IMG/VR virus record: IMGVR_UViG_3300029193_000102
Location: 1 to 33,477 of that record
Length of the DNA: 33,477 bases
Source: a virus
Lineage: Duplodnaviria > Heunggongvirae > Uroviricota > Caudoviricetes
Strand: one strand, 5' to 3'
The notes under the pieces are model-generated. The model ran no database searches. It saw only the letters and a program-made list of their open reading frames with translations, and was not told the origin of the DNA. Positions 892 through 21,830 of this stretch are shown piece by piece. Both the position numbers and the translations under genes were made by a program. Every line of letters begins with the position of its first letter. Within the stretch, counting starts at the first letter, position 1.

Positions 892-981
892 GGAGAGATG
901 CCGGAGCGGCTGAACGGACCGGTCTCGAAAACCGGAGTGGGGGCAACTCCACCGGGGGTTCAAATCCCCCTCTCTCCGCCA
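892..981 (+). tRNA. serU: tRNA-Ser, anticodon CGA; prophage integration target
   Basis: 90-nt sequence GGAGAGATGCCGGAGCGGCTGAACGGACCGGTCTCGAAAACC...GGTTCAAATCCCCCTCTCTCCGCCA with long variable arm, T-loop GGTTCAAATCC and 3' CCA; anticodon loop CTCGAAA. Confidence 0.9.
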
Positions 982-5401: not shown

Positions 5402-5459
5402 AAAAAGGGCGGCAGAGCAGTCACGGAGTAAAACTGATACCGCCAAACGTCACCAGAAA
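5402..5459 (-). ncRNA. dicF: DicF small RNA (53 nt at 5407..5459) with 3' stem-loop and U-tract
   Basis: Minus-strand sequence TTTCTGGTGACGTTTGGCGGTATCAGTTTTACTCCGTGACTGCTCTGCCGCCC followed by TTTTT matches recalled DicF; lies upstream of dicB as in the Qin dicB operon. Confidence 0.7.
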
Positions 5460-5799: not shown

Positions 5800-6018
5800 T
5801 TAACGCGGGTATGTAATCATTCTGGCAATGCTTAATGCCGCTGCTTTTTCCAGATTGGTGATATCCTGCTCCAGAGCGGACAGATTTTCAGCCTGCTTAG
5901 CCCTGGCTTCATTGGCCCATTTCAGATCCTGCGCTGCATTAATTTTCTGGCGCATCCACTCATAAAGTTCATCATCGGTATAGTCTGGCGCGATGATGAC
6001 GGGTTCTCGTTTCTGCAT
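5800..6018 (-). CDS. Hypothetical 72-aa protein (position and size equivalent to Qin YdfC)
   Basis: ATG 6016..6018 with AAGGAG 6 nt upstream; predicted coiled-coil-rich small protein; same strand as the dicB module. Confidence 0.5.
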   Translation of the reverse strand: MQKREPVIIAPDYTDDELYEWMRQKINAAQDLKWANEARAKQAENLSALEQDITNLEKAAALSIARMITYPR

Positions 6019-6089: not shown

Positions 6090-6446
6090 TTACTCGAGAG
6101 GAAATTGGTTATGAGTACAATCAAGTTTTCTTGCCCAGAATGTGGTGGCGAAGTCTTTGACACATCCTTTAAGCCGCAGGGCTCTGACAGTTTCGCGGGA
6201 GCCATCTGCAAAAATTGTGGTCACCTTGTAACTGAAGATGAGTCCTCGCAGTTCGATGATGAAATCGTTGACAATATCTTCGGTGCACTCACCAGAGACT
6301 TTCTGAAGTAAAGGCGCATACCGCTTAGTTACCGCTCTGATAATTCTTACCTGTCCGGCAATGGCGCTGATGTCAATATAAAGCGCCATTGCTGCTTCTT
6401 TGCCGATCCCGGGATGCCTTCCATTCTGATGTTTGACTTCGCCCAC
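6090..6446 (-). CDS. Hypothetical 118-aa protein (GTG start); conflicts with the antisense zinc-ribbon ORF at 6111..6311
   Basis: AGAGGA 7 nt upstream of GTG 6444..6446; same strand as the surrounding early-left operon; no recognisable motif. Confidence 0.3.
   Translation of the reverse strand: MGEVKHQNGRHPGIGKEAAMALYIDISAIAGQVRIIRAVTKRYAPLLQKVSGECTEDIVNDFIIELRGLIFSYKVTTIFADGSRETVRALRLKGCVKDFATTFWARKLDCTHNQFPLE
6111..6311 (+). CDS. Hypothetical 66-aa zinc-ribbon protein (CPECGG...CKNCGH); antisense to the 6090..6446 ORF
   Basis: ATG 6111 with GAGAGGAAA upstream; two CxxC pairs ~22 residues apart; opposite strand to neighbouring genes. Confidence 0.35.
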   Translation: MSTIKFSCPECGGEVFDTSFKPQGSDSFAGAICKNCGHLVTEDESSQFDDEIVDNIFGALTRDFLK

Positions 6447-6636
6447 TGAGAAATCCTCTGTTTCCCCTTAACGCCGGGGTAGCGGAACAAAAACCTGCTG
6501 CATAGTTATTAAAGTTGAACCCTGCCGTCATGTTCTTACGCCTCGGGCTGGCTACTTAACCCCTGACCACTGCCTGGTAACTCGAAGTATTGCCCTGCAT
6601 TCTGTGGGGCGGGGTGGGTTGGTATGAAAAGAAGGA

Positions 6637-6673
6637 TACCCATAGGTATTTAAAAAGTAAATACCTATGGGTA
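6637..6673. promoter_or_regulatory. 16-bp perfect inverted repeat TACCCATAGGTATTTA / TAAATACCTATGGGTA (5-bp spacer); candidate operator upstream of the dicB-type operon
   Basis: Arms at 6637..6652 and 6658..6673; lies in the 270-bp non-coding gap between the repressor gene stop and the first early-left ORF. Confidence 0.35.
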
Positions 6674-6715
6674 AATTTTTGCGGTGTCTTAACTGGTGAC
6701 TAGTTGTTTGGTGAG

Positions 6716-7135
6716 CTATGATGCGTTTTGTGCTTTCTTTTTACGGATTTCTTCGTAGATCATATTGTAATACTGTTTTTTCTCTTCAAGAGTTTTTAAT
6801 AATTTATCCGCTTCACTTTCTGGCAGTTCGTCTAAGAGATCTAAAAAAATACGTTGTCGTGGCGTTAGAACCCTTGTTTCATAACTGGAGGCTGTGTTCG
6901 TTGATGATGAAACGATACCATCCATCCATCCCCGGGGTAACCCAAAGGACTCTTCGATAATCTCCACCATATCATCAGCGATCCGTTTTTTTCCCTTTTT
7001 CCCCTCTGGGTACAACATTCTTGATACATAAGAAGGCTCGCGCCCGATCTTTCTGGCCACGTTAACCGCTTTACCATCGCATTTCTCATCACGAATTTTG
7101 ATGAGTTGCTGTCGTCTAAATTCATATTTGTCCAT
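6716..7135 (-). CDS. Prophage repressor, HTH (DicA/RacR-like immunity repressor), possibly translated leaderless
   Basis: 139 aa; HTH-like segment GKAVNVARKIGREPSYVSRML; C-terminal FLDLLDELPESEAD resembles recalled DicA; divergent from a Cro-like gene; no SD before the ATG but a TATTAT -10 (7142..7147) sits just upstream. Confidence 0.7.
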   Translation of the reverse strand: MDKYEFRRQQLIKIRDEKCDGKAVNVARKIGREPSYVSRMLYPEGKKGKKRIADDMVEIIEESFGLPRGWMDGIVSSSTNTASSYETRVLTPRQRIFLDLLDELPESEADKLLKTLEEKKQYYNMIYEEIRKKKAQNAS

Positions 7136-7141
7136 AGGTAA

Positions 7142-7211
7142 ATAATAGATGCGATTACCGCAAGGTAAACAACCTGTGGGTATTGACTTTTGTTTACCTG
7201 TGGGTATTCTT
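7142..7211. promoter_or_regulatory. Divergent promoter/operator region: direct repeats ACCTGTGGGTATT (7172..7184, 7196..7208) overlapping a rightward promoter (-35 TTGACT 7183..7188, -10 ~7205..7211) and a leftward promoter (-35 GTTTAC 7165..7170 rc, -10 TATTAT 7142..7147 rc)
   Basis: Repeats and hexamers read directly; spacings 16-17 bp; placement between the divergent repressor and Cro-like genes. Confidence 0.4.
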
Positions 7212-7235
7212 TGCTGTGTTTACTAAGGAGTAGCT

Positions 7236-7517
7236 ATGGAAGAATTAAGAATATTTCTCAATTCTCTTTCGTCAGATGAACAGCGTATGTTTGCATGCGA
7301 GTGTGGTACCAGCATCGGTTATCTAAGAAAGGCATTGAGTAAAGGTCAAGTGTTAGGGGCATCGTTATGTGTCCTTATTGAGCGAGCCAGTAATGGTGAA
7401 GTTACACGTCAGCAACTAAGGCCTTTTGATTGGATGAATATTTGGCCCGAGCTGGAAGATACCAAAACGTTAACACAACCACTTTCTAGGAGCTTGATTC
7501 ATGAAAATCAAGCATGA
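7236..7517 (+). CDS. Cro-like HTH regulator (YdaS/DicC-like)
   Basis: 93 aa; AAGGAG SD 7 nt upstream; HTH segment CGTSIGYLRKALS; QLRPFDWMNIW resembles recalled Rac YdaS; divergent from the repressor. Confidence 0.7.
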   Translation: MEELRIFLNSLSSDEQRMFACECGTSIGYLRKALSKGQVLGASLCVLIERASNGEVTRQQLRPFDWMNIWPELEDTKTLTQPLSRSLIHENQA

Positions 7518-7926
7518 ACACATCCGCATGGCGATGAATGCATGGGCGCGTCCTGATGGCGAAAAAGTTCCAGCAGCTGGAATAACCCAGGCTTATTTTG
7601 AGTTGGGTATGACGTTCCCAGAACTGTATGACGACAGCCATCCGGAAGCCCTGGCTCGCAATACCCAGAAAATTTTCCGCTGGGTAGAGAAAGACACCCC
7701 TGATGCTGTTGAAAAAATGCAGGCTCTGTTACCGGCGATCGAAAAGGCGATGCCGCCTTTGCTGGTGGCCCGTATGCGCAGCCACAGTTCTGAATATTAC
7801 CGTGAGATCGTCGAACGGAGGGATCGGCTGGTGAAGGATGTCGATGATTTTGTTGCGTCAGCGGTTGTTTTGTATGACCAGATGAATCGCGGCGGCCCGG
7901 CAGGGAATGCTGTGGTGATGCACTAA
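7501..7926 (+). CDS. YdaT-like regulator (CII-position protein)
   Basis: 141 aa; N-terminus MKIKHEHI matches recalled Rac YdaT; AGGAG SD; start overlaps the Cro-like gene end. Confidence 0.65.
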   Translation: MKIKHEHIRMAMNAWARPDGEKVPAAGITQAYFELGMTFPELYDDSHPEALARNTQKIFRWVEKDTPDAVEKMQALLPAIEKAMPPLLVARMRSHSSEYYREIVERRDRLVKDVDDFVASAVVLYDQMNRGGPAGNAVVMH

Positions 7927-7948
7927 AAGCACGGTGTTCGGGGGGTTT

Positions 7949-8911
7949 ATGAGCAGCAAGCTTCATGGTCTTGTCTGGGAAGGGTGCGCCTTCACCGGCA
8001 TGATCTTATCCAGGGTGGCGGTTATGGCCCGTCTTGCAGACTACAGCAATGACGAGGGCGTGTCATGGCCTGCCATTGAAACTATCCGGCGTCAGATCGG
8101 TGCAAGAAGTGAATCCACAGTGAAATCGGCTATTGCAGAACTGGCGAAAGAGGGCTGGCTGACGAAGGAAGAGCGTAAGGTCGGTGGGCGTAATGTAAGC
8201 AATATCTATCGGCTTAATGTGGAAAAACTCGAAGCAGCTGCGGCGGCGGCGCGTGAGTCATATAAACCGAAAAGAAAAATTAGCCCGGCAAAAAATGACC
8301 CGTTAACAGTTGACCCGTCAAATATTGACCCCTCAACGGTTGACCCGTCAAATTTTGATGGATCAACTGTTGATAAAAAACTGCCGATTAGGGGGGCGAT
8401 GATTGACCCCGATCCGTCAGTATTAAAACCTGATCCGTCAGATAAAAGATCTTCTTGTCCGGACGCTTCGCAACCGGACCCGCAGACGGCTGAACAGGAT
8501 TTTTTAACCCGACACCCTGACGCGGTTGTGTTCAGTGCGAAAAAACGCCAGTGGGGAAGTCAGGAAGATTTGGTGTGCGCACAGTGGATCTGGGGACGAA
8601 TCGTGAGTCTTTACGAGCAGGCGGCCAGCTATGATGGCGAGATCACTAGACCGAAAGAACCCAACTGGACAGCATGGGCCAATGACGTTCGCACAATGCG
8701 GATGCTGGATGGCAGAACTCACAGACAAATTTGTGAAATGTTTGGGCGTCTCCAGCGGGATTCGTTCTGGGTAAAAAACATCATGAGTCCGGCAAAACTC
8801 CGGGAAAAATGGGATGAACTGGTTATCCGCCTGGGGCGTTCGCCTGCGCAGCGTTGCGTGAATCACATTTCTGAACCGGACACTGAAATTCCGCCGGGCT
8901 TCAGGGGGTGA
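7949..8911 (+). CDS. Replication initiator (lambda O-like role) with N-terminal winged-helix domain and internal pentapeptide repeat
   Basis: ATG 7949 after G-rich SD (ORF track starts at GTG 7934); N-terminal HTH-type domain; immediately followed by a DnaC-like loader; contains iteron array. Confidence 0.7.
   Translation: MSSKLHGLVWEGCAFTGMILSRVAVMARLADYSNDEGVSWPAIETIRRQIGARSESTVKSAIAELAKEGWLTKEERKVGGRNVSNIYRLNVEKLEAAAAAARESYKPKRKISPAKNDPLTVDPSNIDPSTVDPSNFDGSTVDKKLPIRGAMIDPDPSVLKPDPSDKRSSCPDASQPDPQTAEQDFLTRHPDAVVFSAKKRQWGSQEDLVCAQWIWGRIVSLYEQAASYDGEITRPKEPNWTAWANDVRTMRMLDGRTHRQICEMFGRLQRDSFWVKNIMSPAKLREKWDELVIRLGRSPAQRCVNHISEPDTEIPPGFRG
8310..8441. repeat. Iteron-like direct repeats (TTGACCCGTCAAAT family) with exact 15-bp periodicity inside the initiator gene; candidate replication origin
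   Basis: Copies start at 8310, 8325, 8340, 8355, 8370, with degenerate copies at 8403 and 8431; they encode the repeated VDPSN(I/F)D peptide. Confidence 0.5.
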
Positions 8912-13206: not shown

Positions 13207-13465
13207 ATACAGCGAACGCCATTGGTTTAGTTGGATATTTACTGTGCCGGACAAAAACGGTTTGCGGGGAAATCTTAGTTAAGTAGAATAACTGCGGGTG
13301 CTTGAGGCTATCTGTCTCAGGCATGAACACCAAAAGGCAGATAGAGAAAAGCCCCAGTTAACATTACGCGTCCGGCAAGACGCTTAACATTAATCTGAGG
13401 CTCAATCTATGAACGGCAAATCTAGGTTAGCCTCTTACGTGCCGAAAGGCAAGGAGAAGCAGGCT

Positions 13466-13621
13466 ATGAAGCAGCAAAAGGCGATGTTAGTCGCCCTGAT
13501 CGTCATCTGTATTACCGTCATTGTGACGGCACTGGTAACGAGGAAAGACCTCTGCGAGGTACGAATCCGAACCGGCCAGACGGAGGTCACTGTCTTCACA
13601 GCTTACGAACCTGAGGAGTAA
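13466..13621 (+). CDS. hok: Hok/Gef-family type I toxin (HokD/RelF-like)
   Basis: 51 aa MKQQKAMLVALIVICITVIVTALVTRKDLCEVRIRTGQTEVTVFTAYEPEE, near-identical to recalled HokD; AAGGAGAAG SD 7 nt upstream. Confidence 0.8.
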   Translation: MKQQKAMLVALIVICITVIVTALVTRKDLCEVRIRTGQTEVTVFTAYEPEE

Positions 13622-16486: not shown

Positions 16487-16804
16487 GTGGTAAATTGGCG
16501 GCTGGTGGGTGTGGTGGTTGTTGCTTTCCCGTTGCTGAAAAAGAAAACGCCAGACTGTTAGCCGGGTATCAGTTATCTGGAGAAATTTTTAAATACCTCA
16601 CAATTCAGGCGGTTGACTGTTGTCTGGTTTGCGGGGAGTTTGTTAAAAGAAACTGGCATGGTGAATCCCCCTGTGCGGAGGGGCAATCAGCAACTGGTGT
16701 TTTGTCACCGACCCTTATCCTTTCTGTGCGGGTTCAGGTGCTGATACTGAACTCACCGGGAGGCACCCGGCATCATGTGCATGATGATACAGATACGCGG
16801 CTTT

Positions 16805-16830
16805 AGCCCCTCTCCGGAGGGGCTTTCTTG
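16805..16830 (+). terminator. Rho-independent terminator (plus strand)
   Basis: AGCCCCTC-TCCG-GAGGGGCT followed by TTCTTG. Confidence 0.45.
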
Positions 16831-16835
16831 TGGGC

Positions 16836-16861
16836 AAAAAAAAGCCCGAGTGGGTTCGGGC
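16836..16861 (-). terminator. Rho-independent terminator (minus strand), convergent with the previous one
   Basis: A8 run then GCCCGA-GTGGGT-TCGGGC on the plus strand, i.e. hairpin plus U-tract on the minus strand. Confidence 0.4.
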
Positions 16862-17043
16862 AACAGCATGAGATATACATTTTTATAATCGAATGGATTT
16901 TAACCAGAATTCATAAGGCTGCGCAACTGCGCGGTCTTTTTCGAATTGCGGGCTGTCGTCTCTCTTCTGCCATTGTCCTGTAACTTCCGGACTTCAGCCT
17001 GCTCCTTATCTGACTCACAATATTATCCCGGCCGGGAGGATTC

Positions 17044-21360: not shown

Positions 21361-21830
21361 ACATAAACCGAATGCTTTCCGCGTTTATCGTTATTCTGCT
21401 GGTGGCCTGTGGTGCGCTGTGGATGGCAACAGACCATTACCGTGATAACGCGATTACCTACAAAGCGCAGCGCGATAACAAAGCCAGAGAACTGAAGCTG
21501 GCGAACGCAACCATTACTGATATGCAGGTGCGCCAGCGCGATGTTGCTGCGCTCGATGCAAAATACTCGAGGGAATTAGCCGATGCGAGAGCTGAAAATG
21601 AAACTCTTCGCGCTGATGTTGCCGCTGGTCGTAAGCGCCTGCGGATCAACGCCACCTGCCCCGGTACCGTGCGTGAAGCCACCGGCACCTCCGGCGTGGA
21701 TAATGCAACCGGCCCCCGACTGGCAGACACCGCTGAACGGGATTATTTCATCCTCAGAGAACGGTTGATGACAATGCAGAAGCAGGTGGAAGGGGCGCAG
21801 GAATATATCCGCACTCAGTGTATTAACTAG
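21357..21830 (+). CDS. Rz: Rz i-spanin
   Basis: Strong similarity to recalled lambda Rz ([25 protein letters not shown]...DVAALDAKY...[27 protein letters not shown]); alternative start ATG 21372. Confidence 0.8.
21583..21768 (+). CDS. Rz1: Rz1 o-spanin lipoprotein, embedded in Rz in the +1 frame
   Basis: MLPLVVSAC lipobox; Pro-rich [27 protein letters not shown] matches recalled lambda Rz1. Confidence 0.75.

What the first reader, a model, noticed from the sequence alone, without database searches (positions are those of the whole stretch)
7136..7235. Compact immunity switch: repeated operator overlapping divergent promoters, and a likely leaderless repressor mRNA
Two copies of ACCTGTGGGTATT (7172..7184, 7196..7208) overlap a rightward promoter for the Cro-like gene (-35 TTGACT, 17-bp spacer) and the -35 of a leftward promoter whose -10 TATTAT ends about 7 nt before the repressor ATG. 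The repressor gene has no Shine-Dalgarno sequence, which is the arrangement seen for lambda cI expressed from pRM. The regulators themselves look like a mix of DicA/RacR-like repressor and YdaS/YdaT-like partners.
Basis: partly seen in the sequence, partly recalled or inferred. Interest (0 to 1): 0.45.

Follow-up and report, generated by a model that had tools for sequence, protein, structure and literature searches.

The report
Prophage lysis-lysogeny switch, leaderless repressor
This is the on/off control region of a lambda-like prophage of E. coli: an ordinary kind of switch whose repressor-binding sites, never described as far as I could find, are five small palindromes rather than two direct repeats, and whose repressor message very probably starts right at its start codon.

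Summary
ACCTGTGGGTATT occurs exactly twice (7172-7184, 7196-7208) in the 100-bp gap between a leftward repressor gene (6716-7135) and a rightward Cro-like gene (7236-7517).

The two repeats are part of a larger set of five palindromic sites, TACC-N4-GGTA. Three lie in the gap: OR1 7195-7206, OR2 7171-7182 and OR3 7156-7167. Two lie just past the repressor gene, at a mirror-image leftward promoter: OL1 6637-6648 and OL2 6662-6673.

The same sites, at the same distances from the repressor ATG, recur in about 25 loci from Gamma- and Betaproteobacteria and in the lambdoid phage mEp043. Only the half-sites, the promoter hexamers and the ATG are invariant.

In 26 of 28 loci a -10 hexamer sits 6-7 nt before the ATG. 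The start codon is always ATG, no usable Shine-Dalgarno sequence is present, and the protein is conserved from codon 1. A leaderless repressor mRNA is therefore well supported, though not mapped experimentally.

The repressor is a mosaic. Its DNA-binding domain is that of mEp043-type, S24-peptidase cI repressors, and its short tail resembles that of DicA. It is not RacR-like.

Verdict: a new member, with a new operator specificity, of a well-known kind of switch. Interest is moderate to low.

The parts
6716..7135 (-). Repressor gene (139 aa). N-terminal HTH DNA-binding domain (aa 1-~75), disordered linker (aa 77-87), C-terminal helix-turn-long-helix tail similar to that of DicA.
   Evidence: ORF. 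RefSeq annotates the same start. PHROG 5736 matches end to end, E 6e-70. Homologues and alignment. AF2 model with pLDDT 86. Best fold match is the Rep repressor of Salmonella phage SPC32H, 5D50. The tail aligns to DicA aa 84-129.
7142..7147 (-). -10 hexamer TATTAT of the repressor (PRM-like) promoter. It ends 6 nt before the ATG, so the predicted transcription start is the A of the ATG at 7135.
   Evidence: Scan. An equivalent hexamer (A2, T6, at least 4/6) lies at 6-7 nt in 26 of 28 related loci.
7164..7169 (-). -35 hexamer TTTACC of the PRM-like promoter. It is embedded in the left half of OR3. The spacer to the -10 is 16 bp.
   Evidence: TTTAC is invariant in the alignment of 18 loci.
7156..7167 (.). 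OR3: TACCGCAAGGTA, centred at -26.5 of the PRM-like promoter. Predicted site of negative autoregulation. Its central 4 bp are not YRYR.
   Evidence: Exact palindrome. Present at -32/-33 from the ATG in nearly all relatives, always 15 bp from OR2.
7171..7182 (.). OR2: AACCTGTGGGTA, with one conserved imperfect half-site. It abuts the -35 of PR and is centred at -41.5 of the PRM-like promoter.
   Evidence: The imperfect half (GGTT on the repressor strand) is conserved in most relatives.
7195..7206 (.). OR1: TACCTGTGGGTA, lying between the -35 and -10 of PR and overlapping the -10 by 2 bp.
7183..7188 (+). -35 hexamer TTGACT of the rightward (PR-like) promoter.
   Evidence: Its complement CAA, directly next to OR2, is invariant in relatives.
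7205..7210 (+). -10 hexamer TATTCT of the PR-like promoter. Its first two bases are the last two of OR1.
   Evidence: The same overlap is seen in relatives.
7225..7230 (+). Shine-Dalgarno sequence AAGGAG of the Cro-like gene, 5 nt before its ATG. It serves as a contrast to the repressor gene.
   Evidence: Sequence.
7236..7517 (+). Cro-like gene (YdaS family, 93 aa).
   Evidence: Pfam YdaS at 25.8 bits, below the cutoff of 30. PHROG 35. 73% identical to mEp043 Cro. Homologous Cro-like genes occur in nearly all loci with this operator design.
7494..7511 (.). TTGATTCATGAAAATCAA: an exact match to the YdaT operator TTGATT-N6-AATCAA, at the ydaS/ydaT junction. Predicted site for a cII-like, PRE-type establishment promoter.
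   Evidence: the only exact match in the window. The motif and its position match those footprinted in CP-933P (PMC9986795).
7501..7926 (+). cII-like gene (YdaT family, 141 aa).
   Evidence: Pfam PF06254 at 37.8 bits, above the cutoff of 21. PHROG 163, CII-like activator. 31% identity over the full length to K-12 YdaT.
6662..6673 (.). OL2: TACCTATGGGTA, directly upstream of the -35 of the leftward PL-like promoter.
   Evidence: Exact palindrome. A distal pair spaced 25-26 bp is conserved in most relatives, and in mEp043 it lies upstream of gene N.
6637..6648 (.). OL1: TACCCATAGGTA, between the -35 and -10 of the PL-like promoter.
6633..6661 (-). PL-like promoter, a mirror copy of PR: TTTACT (6661-6656) / 17 bp / TATCCT (6638-6633). 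It matches 8/12, below the scanner's threshold, and was read by eye and by alignment with relatives.
   Evidence: Inverted repeat I1, 6632-6655 against 7188-7211. The conserved layout OL2 | -35 | OL1 | -10 is seen in about 23 loci.
6627..6673 (-). Perfect 16-bp hairpin made of OL2 and OL1 plus flanks, followed by UCCUUCUUUU. It is the likely intrinsic terminator of the repressor transcript, 43 nt past the stop codon.
   Evidence: Terminator scan. RNA fold of -24.6 kcal/mol, z = -6.9.

Best explanation
This is the immunity (lysis-lysogeny) switch of a lambdoid prophage, built on the lambda plan but with its own DNA-binding specificity.

Operators. The 139-aa repressor binds as a symmetric dimer to 12-14-bp palindromes TACC-N4-GGTA. 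Three sites lie in the 100-bp gap.
- OR1 and OR2 are 24 bp apart. They cover the -10 of the rightward promoter and abut its -35, so their occupation shuts off the Cro-like, cII-like and replication genes.
- OR2 is centred at -41.5 of the leftward repressor promoter. That is the position from which lambda cI activates PRM.
- OR3 overlaps that promoter's -35 and spacer. At high repressor levels it would shut off the repressor's own synthesis.

Leftward promoter. Two further sites, OL1 and OL2, occupy the same positions in a mirror-image leftward promoter just past the repressor gene. That promoter drives the Qin-like ydfC-dicF-dicB / exonuclease operon.

Terminator. In this window the two OL sites also form a perfect 16-bp hairpin with a U tail. 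It probably terminates the repressor transcript before it can read into that operon.

Leaderless mRNA. The repressor promoter's -10 ends 6 nt before the ATG, so the maintenance transcript should begin at the A of the AUG and be translated without a leader, as for lambda cI, PaaR2 and RacR.

Other regulators. The Cro-like protein presumably binds the same sites in the opposite order. The YdaT-like protein binds its exact operator at 7494-7511 and is expected to drive an establishment promoter.

Induction. The repressor carries a DicA-like tail instead of an S24 peptidase domain, so induction is not expected to go through RecA-stimulated self-cleavage.

What is shown here: the sites, their geometry, their conservation, the protein homologies and the coding constraint. 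What is inferred: binding, the order of site occupation, activation and autorepression, the transcription start, termination, and the route of induction.
For: Sites in the window:
- Four exact TACC-N4-GGTA sites against 0.14 expected, all flanking the repressor gene, plus one site with a single mismatch.
- A 41-kb stretch of a near-identical prophage holds only these four exact sites. K-12 Rac and Qin control loci hold none.

Phylogenetic footprint:
- In loci encoding repressors whose N-terminal domain is 49-82% identical, from Yersinia, Edwardsiella, Pantoea, Aeromonas, Ferrovum, Oxalobacter and others, sites sit at -72/-73, -47/-48 and -32/-33 from the ATG. The window has them at -71, -47 and -32.
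- The OR2-OR3 spacing is an invariant 15 bp, and the OR1-OR2 spacing is 24-25 bp.
- The central 4 bp vary while the half-sites do not.
- In an 18-locus alignment the invariant columns are the half-sites, the CAA next to OR2 (the complement of the PR -35), TTTAC (the PRM -35) and the ATG.
- The functional lambdoid phage mEp043, with annotated cI, Cro, cII and N, has the same OR1-3 and an OL pair upstream of N.
- The layout OL2 | -35 | OL1 | -10 is conserved.
- The Cro-like proteins are homologous across these loci.

Leaderless design:
- A -10-like hexamer lies 6-7 nt before the ATG in 26 of 28 loci. SD-like strings, where present, lie upstream of that hexamer.
- The start codon is ATG in 28 of 28 loci. 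Codons 2-45 show many synonymous codons under a conserved amino-acid sequence: R7, R8 and L11 each use five or more codons. No in-frame downstream start has an SD.
- Precedent: the paaR2 transcription start mapped by 5' RACE at the ATG, with N-terminal sequencing (PMC8630535); the strongest racR promoter gives a leaderless transcript (PMC9638921).

Other points:
- Hairpin terminator.
- Exact YdaT operator.
- Repressor structure and domains.
Against: - No binding, transcription-start or expression data exist for this repressor or for any member of its family. I found no paper on this motif, and none of the 14 papers that mention mEp043 turned up as a study of its operators.
- Both promoters match the consensus only moderately (9/12 each), and the number of promoter-like hits in the region is no higher than in shuffled sequence. 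The promoters rest on conservation, not on the scan.
- The PL-like promoter scores only 8/12.
- OR2 and OR3 are 15 bp apart, about 1.5 helical turns. That differs from lambda and makes lambda-style cooperativity between them unlikely, so the order of filling and the autoregulation logic are guesses.
- A few relatives (Klebsiella L005-L011) lack OR2 and the Cro homologue. One distant relative (Orbus, L027) has a clear SD.
- The extended hairpin is specific to this window's lineage.
- No antirepressor or convincing LexA box was found in the window, so the induction route is open.
Confidence: 0.77

Rival explanations
1. One reading: the operator is the 13-bp direct repeat ACCTGTGGGTATT, present in two copies and read head-to-tail. 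These two copies would make up the whole switch.
For: The two copies are identical over 13 bp and 24 bp apart.
Against: - In relatives the central 4 bp and the flanks of OR1 and OR2 differ from each other. Examples are CGTG against TGTG and CATA against CGCA. Only the inverted half-sites are invariant.
- OR3 and the two OL sites fit the palindrome but not the 13-mer, with 2-3 or more mismatches.
- The predicted DNA-binding domain is an XRE-type HTH, whose relatives bind palindromes as dimers.
Confidence: 0.04
2. The repressor is made mainly from a leadered transcript that starts further upstream. Candidates are a YdaT-activated promoter near 7500 or another promoter inside the gap. Under this reading the TATTAT near the ATG is not the working -10, and translation starts at the same ATG without an SD.
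For: - K-12 racR has three promoters, only one of which is leaderless (PMC9638921).
- An exact YdaT site lies at 7494-7511, and a PRE-type promoter exists in CP-933P. Leadered repressor transcripts are therefore expected during establishment.
- The promoter scan is not enriched over shuffles.
Against: - A -10-like hexamer is held at 6-7 nt from the ATG and 16 bp from TTTACC across highly diverged loci, while the bases between them vary freely. That is hard to explain unless this promoter is used.
- The start codon is ATG in every locus, as leaderless translation requires.
- This rival is more likely to coexist with the leaderless maintenance transcript than to replace it.
Confidence: 0.12
3. 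The inverted repeat at 6637-6673 is only a bidirectional intrinsic terminator after the repressor gene. Its resemblance to the operators is coincidental, and there is no leftward operator-controlled promoter there.
For: A perfect 16-bp stem with T runs on both strands and a strong fold. The PL-like hexamers match only 8/12.
Against: - Pairs of exact TACC-N4-GGTA sites 25-26 bp apart lie downstream of the repressor gene in about 23 related loci. Most of them do not form the extended hairpin, yet all keep the layout site | TTGAC-like -35 | site | TAnnnT.
- In mEp043 the pair precedes gene N.
- The arm is a 79% mirror copy of the PR region (I1).
Confidence: 0.04
4. The three genes form a toxin / repressor (toxin-antitoxin-like) module, as the Pfam names 'YdaS toxin' and 'YdaT toxin' suggest, rather than a phage developmental switch.
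For: Pfam names. Two papers describe RacR as a repressor of the YdaS/YdaT 'toxins'.
Against: - Genetic context: an apparently complete lambdoid prophage with replication, Q, lysis and head genes.
- The Cro-like protein is 73% identical to the Cro of a plaque-forming phage.
- YdaT acts as a cII equivalent and YdaS as a Cro equivalent in CP-933P.
- Jobling's critique of the toxin reading (PMC5917428).
Confidence: 0.03

Closest known systems
Phage lambda cI / Cro / OR-OL switch with leaderless cI mRNA from PRM
   Same: - Divergent repressor and cro genes.
- Three operators in the gap, overlapping PR and PRM.
- OR1-OR2 centre distance of 24 bp.
- OR2 at about -42 of the repressor promoter.
- A second operator set at a leftward promoter beyond the repressor gene.
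- A -10 hexamer 6 nt before the ATG, with no SD.
- A cII-type activator encoded after cro.

The lambda geometry is taken from established knowledge and from the summaries in PMC8630535.
   Different: - 12-14-bp sites (TACC-N4-GGTA) instead of 17-bp sites.
- OR2-OR3 spacing of 15 bp.
- Only two OL sites.
- No S24 self-cleavage domain on this repressor.
- The Cro, cII and repressor proteins are unrelated in sequence to lambda's.
- Here the OL sites double as a terminator hairpin.
PaaR2 / YdaS / YdaT switch of cryptic prophage CP-933P (E. coli O157:H7)
   Same: - A short non-S24 repressor divergent from ydaS-ydaT, with a gap of about 100 bp.
- Leaderless repressor mRNA, shown there by 5' RACE and N-terminal sequencing.
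- OR-type and PL/OL-type operators.
- YdaT operator TTGATT-N6-AATCAA at the ydaS/ydaT junction, which is found exactly in this window.
   Different: - Different operator sequences: 18-bp palindromes with the half-site consensus GTTTAGTAA.
- The PaaR2 operon carries a toxin-antitoxin pair downstream; this one does not.
- The repressor sequence could not be compared directly here.
RacR / YdaS / YdaT of K-12 Rac
   Same: Same gene order and neighbours. Three inverted-repeat operators. The strongest racR promoter gives a leaderless transcript. YdaT is a true homologue at 31% identity.
   Different: No sequence similarity between the repressors. The RacR operator TAGGC-n3-GCCTA is absent from the window. 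RacR O3 overlaps its own ATG, which is not the case here.
DicA / DicC / dicBp switch of Qin
   Same: - A short repressor without a peptidase domain.
- Homologous C-terminal ~46 residues.
- The repressor gene is followed directly by a repressor-controlled promoter for a ydf-dicF-dicB operon. DicF lies at 5407-5458, and DicB and YdfC are annotated in near-identical genomes.
- Described as a bistable switch in PMC10448788.
   Different: The N-terminal DNA-binding domain, the operators and the Cro partner are unrelated to DicA/DicC. No homologue of the DicA antirepressor Rem is present in the window.
cI / Cro immunity region of lambdoid phage mEp043 (and phage CharmingMan)
   Same: The same operator motif, number of sites, spacing and promoter layout, including the leaderless geometry. 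The repressor DNA-binding domain is 65% identical over 86 aa (76% over the first 72). Cro is 73% identical.
   Different: mEp043 cI is 228 aa with an S24 peptidase domain, and it is followed by a lambda-type cII and N. The window has a DicA-like tail, YdaT, and a Qin-like left operon. I found no experimental work on the mEp043 switch.

Membership tests
Lambdoid CI/Cro immunity switch | Divergently transcribed repressor and cro-like genes separated by a short regulatory gap | tested here: met
   6716-7135 (-) and 7236-7517 (+), with a 100-bp gap. RefSeq annotation agrees.
Lambdoid CI/Cro immunity switch | Multiple related operators overlapping both divergent promoters | tested here: met
   OR1, OR2 and OR3 overlap or abut the -35/-10 hexamers of both promoters. 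They are conserved in about 25 loci.
Lambdoid CI/Cro immunity switch | Second operator set at a leftward early promoter (OL/PL) | tested here: met
   OL1 and OL2 at 6637-6673, with mirror-image promoter hexamers. The layout is conserved in relatives and lies upstream of N in mEp043.
Lambdoid CI/Cro immunity switch | Repressor with a C-terminal S24 (LexA-like) self-cleavage domain | tested here: not met
   No Pfam domain. The protein ends at 139 aa with a DicA-like helical tail, whereas relatives of 221-242 aa carry PF00717.
Lambdoid CI/Cro immunity switch | Repressor and Cro physically bind the operators and form a bistable circuit | not testable with these tools
   Needs EMSA or footprinting and reporter assays.
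Leaderless repressor mRNAs (lambda cI from PRM, PaaR2, RacR PracR3) | Transcription starts at the A of the AUG, or within 1-2 nt of it | not testable with these tools
   Only the geometry is available: the -10 ends 6 nt before the ATG.
Leaderless repressor mRNAs (lambda cI from PRM, PaaR2, RacR PracR3) | -10 hexamer at a fixed 6-7 nt from the start codon, with no SD between or just upstream | tested here: met
   Window: TATTAT, 6 nt, ATG. 26 of 28 related loci have an A2/T6 hexamer at 6-7 nt. SD-like strings occur only upstream of the hexamer.
Leaderless repressor mRNAs (lambda cI from PRM, PaaR2, RacR PracR3) | AUG start codon, with the protein really beginning there | tested here: met
   ATG in 28 of 28 loci. 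M1, K3, Y4, E5, R7 and R8 are invariant or nearly so, with synonymous codon variation. No SD-preceded internal start.
RacR family | Sequence similarity to K-12 RacR | tested here: not met
   BLASTP best E value of 2.3.
RacR family | Operators (T/A)TAGGC-n3-GCCTA(T/A) | tested here: not met
   No match in the window, even with one mismatch allowed.
DicA (NCBIfam NF007257) | Full-length match above the curated cutoff | tested here: not met
   24.5 bits against a cutoff of 101. Only aa 86-136 align. Pairwise identity is 33% over 46 aa.
YdaT (Pfam PF06254), cII equivalent | Pfam match above the gathering score, and the cognate operator TTGATT-N6-AATCAA at the ydaS/ydaT junction | tested here: met
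   37.8 bits against a cutoff of 21. Exact site at 7494-7511. Motif taken from PMC9986795.
YdaS (Pfam PF15943), Cro equivalent | Pfam match above the gathering score | tested here: not met
   25.8 bits against a cutoff of 30. The similarity to K-12 YdaS covers only 28 aa. PHROG 35 matches, and the protein is 73% identical to mEp043 Cro. It acts as a Cro-type partner even though formal Pfam membership is sub-threshold.
mEp043-type immunity cassette (defined here) | Repressor N-terminal domain MDKYE...REPSYVSRMLYPEGK...PRGWMD; TACC-N4-GGTA sites at about -72, -47 and -32 from the ATG; a distal pair; a YdaS-family Cro | tested here: met

The most novel reading that the evidence does not exclude
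The window carries a widely spread but undescribed immunity cassette, present from Enterobacterales to Betaproteobacteria. It consists of the repressor DNA-binding domain, the TACC-YRYR-GGTA operators and a YdaS-type Cro.

In this prophage the usual SOS-cleavable S24 domain of the repressor has been swapped for a DicA-type tail. If the DNA specificity is unchanged, the prophage would be immune to SOS-inducible phages of the mEp043 type, and would be held off by them, while itself ignoring RecA. That would make it a natural non-inducible allele sharing operators with inducible phages.

In addition, its two OL operators double as the terminator hairpin of the repressor transcript. Repressor occupancy and transcript termination would then be coupled at a single 37-bp element.
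Probability: 0.35. Interest if true: 0.45.

Novelty: new member of a known kind. Interest (0 to 1): 0.3.

Why it matters
About 15% of complete E. coli genomes (813 of 5,426) carry this immunity region. They include O145:H28 and O55:H7 strains, and there the gene is annotated only as 'hypothetical protein'.

Knowing the repressor, its five operators and its promoters has four practical consequences:
- These prophages can be annotated correctly.
- It identifies what keeps the DicF/DicB cell-division inhibitors and the recombination genes silent.
- It predicts cross-immunity with mEp043-type phages.
- It adds roughly 25 natural examples to the short list of leaderless genes in enterobacteria, in which the leaderless design is conserved across very diverged sequences.

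It does not change the general picture of how lambdoid switches work.

Tried and rejected
- RacR-likeness: tested by BLASTP and by an operator search, and rejected.
- Full DicA membership: rejected. Only the tail matches.
- DicC as the Cro relative: no similarity.
- Sequence search against solved structures: only chance-level hits, such as the Z-alpha domains of ADAR1 at E about 0.08. The fold search was more useful.
- LexA boxes: two CTGT-N8-ACAG matches at 21417 and 28882, no more than chance would give and not next to any candidate antirepressor.
- Homologue of the DicA antirepressor Rem: none in the window.
- Literature on the motif or on the mEp043 switch: nothing found. The primary paper on the SPC32H Rep structure was not in the searchable library.
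- Leaderless geometry at K-12 dicA by eye: no clear -10 at 6-7 nt, so no claim is made.
- The promoter scanner is not enriched over shuffles and missed the PL-like promoter, so I did not rely on it.
Full report
**What is in the sequence**

The finding covers the whole 100-bp gap (7136-7235) between a leftward ORF of 139 aa (6716-7135) and a rightward ORF of 93 aa (7236-7517). The 13-mer ACCTGTGGGTATT is present exactly twice, at 7172-7184 and 7196-7208, and nowhere else in the window.

- Rightward: TTGACT (7183-7188) / 16 / TATTCT (7205-7210).
- Leftward: TTTACC (7169-7164) / 16 / TATTAT (7147-7142).

TATTAT ends 6 nt before the ATG. The 20 nt upstream of the ATG hold no Shine-Dalgarno-like string, whereas the rightward gene has AAGGAG 5 nt before its ATG.

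**The repeats are part of a five-site palindromic operator system**

Each repeat copy contains TACC/AACC-TGTG-GGTA. Searching for TACC-N4-GGTA gives four exact matches in 33.5 kb against 0.14 expected, and no shuffle reaches four. The matches are at 6637-6648, 6662-6673, 7156-7167 and 7195-7206. A one-mismatch site lies at 7171-7182. All five lie within 570 bp around the repressor gene.

I name them as follows:

| Site | Coordinates | Position |
|---|---|---|
| OR1 | 7195-7206 | between the -35 and -10 of the rightward promoter |
| OR2 | 7171-7182 | directly against that -35; centred at -41.5 of the leftward promoter if it starts at 7135 |
| OR3 | 7156-7167 | over the leftward -35 and spacer |
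| OL2 | 6662-6673 | upstream of the PL-like -35 |
| OL1 | 6637-6648 | between the PL-like -35 and -10 |

The OL region is a mirror copy of the PR region (inverted repeat I1, 79%). On the minus strand it reads OL2 | TTTACT | 17 nt including OL1 | TATCCT. That is a PL-like promoter pointing at the left operon.

**Who the proteins are**

The window is a lambdoid prophage of E. coli. At least 80% of 6600-7950 is found in 813 of 5,426 complete genomes. In near-identical genomes the neighbours are an exonuclease, DicB and YdfC on the left. On the right are replication genes, Q, lysis genes and HK97-type head genes.

- **Repressor.** It has no Pfam domain but matches PHROG 5736, 'transcriptional regulator', end to end. 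It has no similarity to RacR.
  - Its last ~46 residues are 33% identical to the tail of DicA (NCBIfam hit far below the cutoff).
  - Its first ~75 residues are shared at 65-82% identity with many 221-242-aa repressors that carry an S24/LexA peptidase domain. These include cI of the lambdoid phage mEp043.
  - An AlphaFold model (pLDDT 86) shows a helical HTH domain, a disordered linker (77-87) and a helix-turn-long-helix tail.
  - The best fold match is the N-terminal domain of the Rep repressor of Salmonella phage SPC32H (rmsd 1.6 Å over 72 columns), followed by XRE-type regulators.
- **Cro-like protein.** The rightward gene product is sub-threshold for Pfam YdaS but 73% identical to mEp043 Cro.
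- **cII-like protein.** The next gene is a true YdaT (Pfam above cutoff; 31% identity over the full length to K-12 YdaT).

**Comparative test of the operators**

A scan of one genome per species with an alignment of the repressor family returned 29 loci. I added mEp043 and phage CharmingMan.

- In about 25 of these loci TACC-N4-GGTA sites lie at -72/-73, -47/-48 and -32/-33 from the repressor ATG. The window has them at -71, -47 and -32. The loci come from Yersinia, Edwardsiella, Brenneria, Pantoea, Leclercia, Atlantibacter and Aeromonas, and from the betaproteobacteria Ferrovum, Oxalobacter and a Hydrogenophilaceae MAG.
- The OR2-OR3 distance is always 15 bp and the OR1-OR2 distance is 24-25 bp.
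- The central four bases differ between sites and between loci. This rules out the 13-bp direct repeat as the recognised unit.
- In OR1, OR2 and the OL sites the centre tends to YRYR. In OR3 it does not.
- The promoter-proximal half of OR2 is conservedly imperfect (GGTT).
- In an 18-locus alignment with 68% mean column identity, the invariant columns are the half-sites, the CAA next to OR2 (complement of the PR -35), TTTAC (the PRM -35, which is also the left half of OR3) and the ATG.
- Almost all exact sites in these 5-kb loci are at the canonical positions.
- A distal pair 25-26 bp apart, laid out as site | TTGAC-like hexamer | site | TAnnnT, follows the repressor gene (plus any cargo) in about 23 loci. 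In mEp043 it lies upstream of gene N.
- The Cro-like proteins of these loci are homologous to each other.

The DNA-binding domain, the operators and Cro therefore travel together as a cassette. The repressor's C-terminal domain (S24 or DicA-like) and the cII-type gene (lambda-type or YdaT) are exchangeable.

**Leaderless repressor mRNA**

- In 26 of 28 canonical loci a hexamer with A2 and T6 and at least 4/6 matches to TATAAT sits 6 or 7 nt before the ATG and 16 bp after TTTACC. Examples are TATTAT, TAGAAT, TAAAAT, TATGAT, TAGACT and GATACT. The bases between the hexamer and the ATG vary freely.
- SD-like strings, where they occur, lie upstream of that hexamer.
- The start codon is ATG in all 28 loci.
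- Codons 2-45 show heavy synonymous variation under a conserved protein: R7, R8 and L11 use five or more codons each. Translation therefore starts at this ATG. No in-frame internal start has an SD.
- Direct experimental precedent exists for the two analogous switches. The paaR2 transcription start was mapped by 5' RACE at the ATG, with the N-terminus sequenced (PMC8630535). The strongest racR promoter gives a leaderless transcript (PMC9638921).

I rate the leaderless maintenance transcript as likely (about 0.75) but not shown.

**Other parts of the circuit**

- The two OL sites and their flanks form a perfect 16-bp hairpin followed by UCCUUCUUUU on the repressor strand, 43 nt after the stop codon. 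It folds at -24.6 kcal/mol, z = -6.9. It is the only candidate for stopping the repressor transcript before it enters the left operon. The extended stem is specific to this lineage.
- An exact copy of the footprinted YdaT operator TTGATT-N6-AATCAA lies at 7494-7511, across the ydaT start. This is the position described for CP-933P and points to a cII/PRE-type establishment route.
- The left operon contains DicF (5407-5458) and, by annotation of near-identical genomes, YdfC and DicB. The repressor thus plays the part DicA plays in Qin (PMC10448788).
- No Rem-like antirepressor and no convincing LexA box were found. How the repressor is inactivated is unknown.

**Comparison and verdict**

The region works like the lambda, PaaR2 and RacR switches, and it passes the sequence-level tests for a lambdoid immunity region. 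The exception is the S24 domain, which it lacks, as DicA, RacR and PaaR2 do.

It is not a RacR-family or full DicA-family member. Its true relatives are the uncharacterised mEp043-type immunity regions. I found no paper describing this operator motif or this switch.

It is a new member, with a new specificity and a mosaic repressor, of a very well-known kind. The interest is modest. It lies mainly in the unusually clean phylogenetic footprint, the conserved leaderless design, the domain swap that should uncouple the prophage from SOS, and the dual operator/terminator element.

Noticed in passing
window 7494-7511: Exact match to the YdaT operator TTGATT-N6-AATCAA (TTGATTCATGAAAATCAA), spanning the ydaT start codon. 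This is the position footprinted in CP-933P, and it suggests a cII/PRE-like establishment promoter reading leftward through ydaS.
   Followed up: partly
window 5407-5458 (-): DicF sRNA (Rfam RF00039, 76.7 bits), lying between a YdfC-like ORF (5800-6018) and the DicB region. The operon under the PL-like promoter is therefore Qin-like (ydfC-dicF-dicB), so this repressor probably controls cell-division inhibitors.
   Followed up: partly
window 6105-6311 (+) and 6311-6626: A 68-aa zinc-ribbon ORF, annotated elsewhere as 'ECs_2282 family putative zinc-binding protein', lies on the opposite strand inside the leader of the leftward operon. About 300 nt downstream of the predicted PL start carry no annotated minus-strand gene. 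In O55:H7 a DUF1391 gene sits there instead.
   Followed up: no
window 6865-7125 (-), proteins P0010 and P0019: Some E. coli genomes carry alleles in which the repressor is called from an out-of-frame internal ATG (MNLDDSNSSKFVM...) and rejoins the normal frame later. These look like frameshifted, probably inactivated, copies of the repressor.
   Followed up: no
window 16627-16835 (+), 16839-16891 (-), 13296-13471 (+): Rfam hits to STnc100 (130 bits), AsxR 'anti-stx2' sRNA (63 bits, exactly at threshold) and the sok antitoxin RNA next to hokD. This is a typical sRNA load for EHEC-type lambdoid prophages.
   Followed up: no
window 892-978 (+): A tRNA gene near the left end. In strain BEN5202 the matching prophage sits next to tRNA-Ser and mtfA, whereas in O55:H7 RM12579 the same immunity region lies in a Rac-type prophage with intR/xisR/ralR/recT/recE. 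The cassette therefore moves between prophage backbones.
   Followed up: partly
loci L005, L007, L009-L011 (Klebsiella): Repressors of 242 aa with the same DNA-binding domain keep OR1, and mostly OR3 and the distal sites, but lack OR2 and have no YdaS-type Cro upstream. This appears to be a different regulatory layout built from the same domain and operator.
   Followed up: no
operator sites in all loci: The central four bases of OR1, OR2 and the OL sites follow YRYR, while those of OR3 do not. The PRM-proximal half of OR2 is conservedly imperfect (GGTT or GGCC). Both features look like built-in affinity tuning by non-contacted bases, as is known for phage 434 operators (from my own knowledge).
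   Followed up: partly
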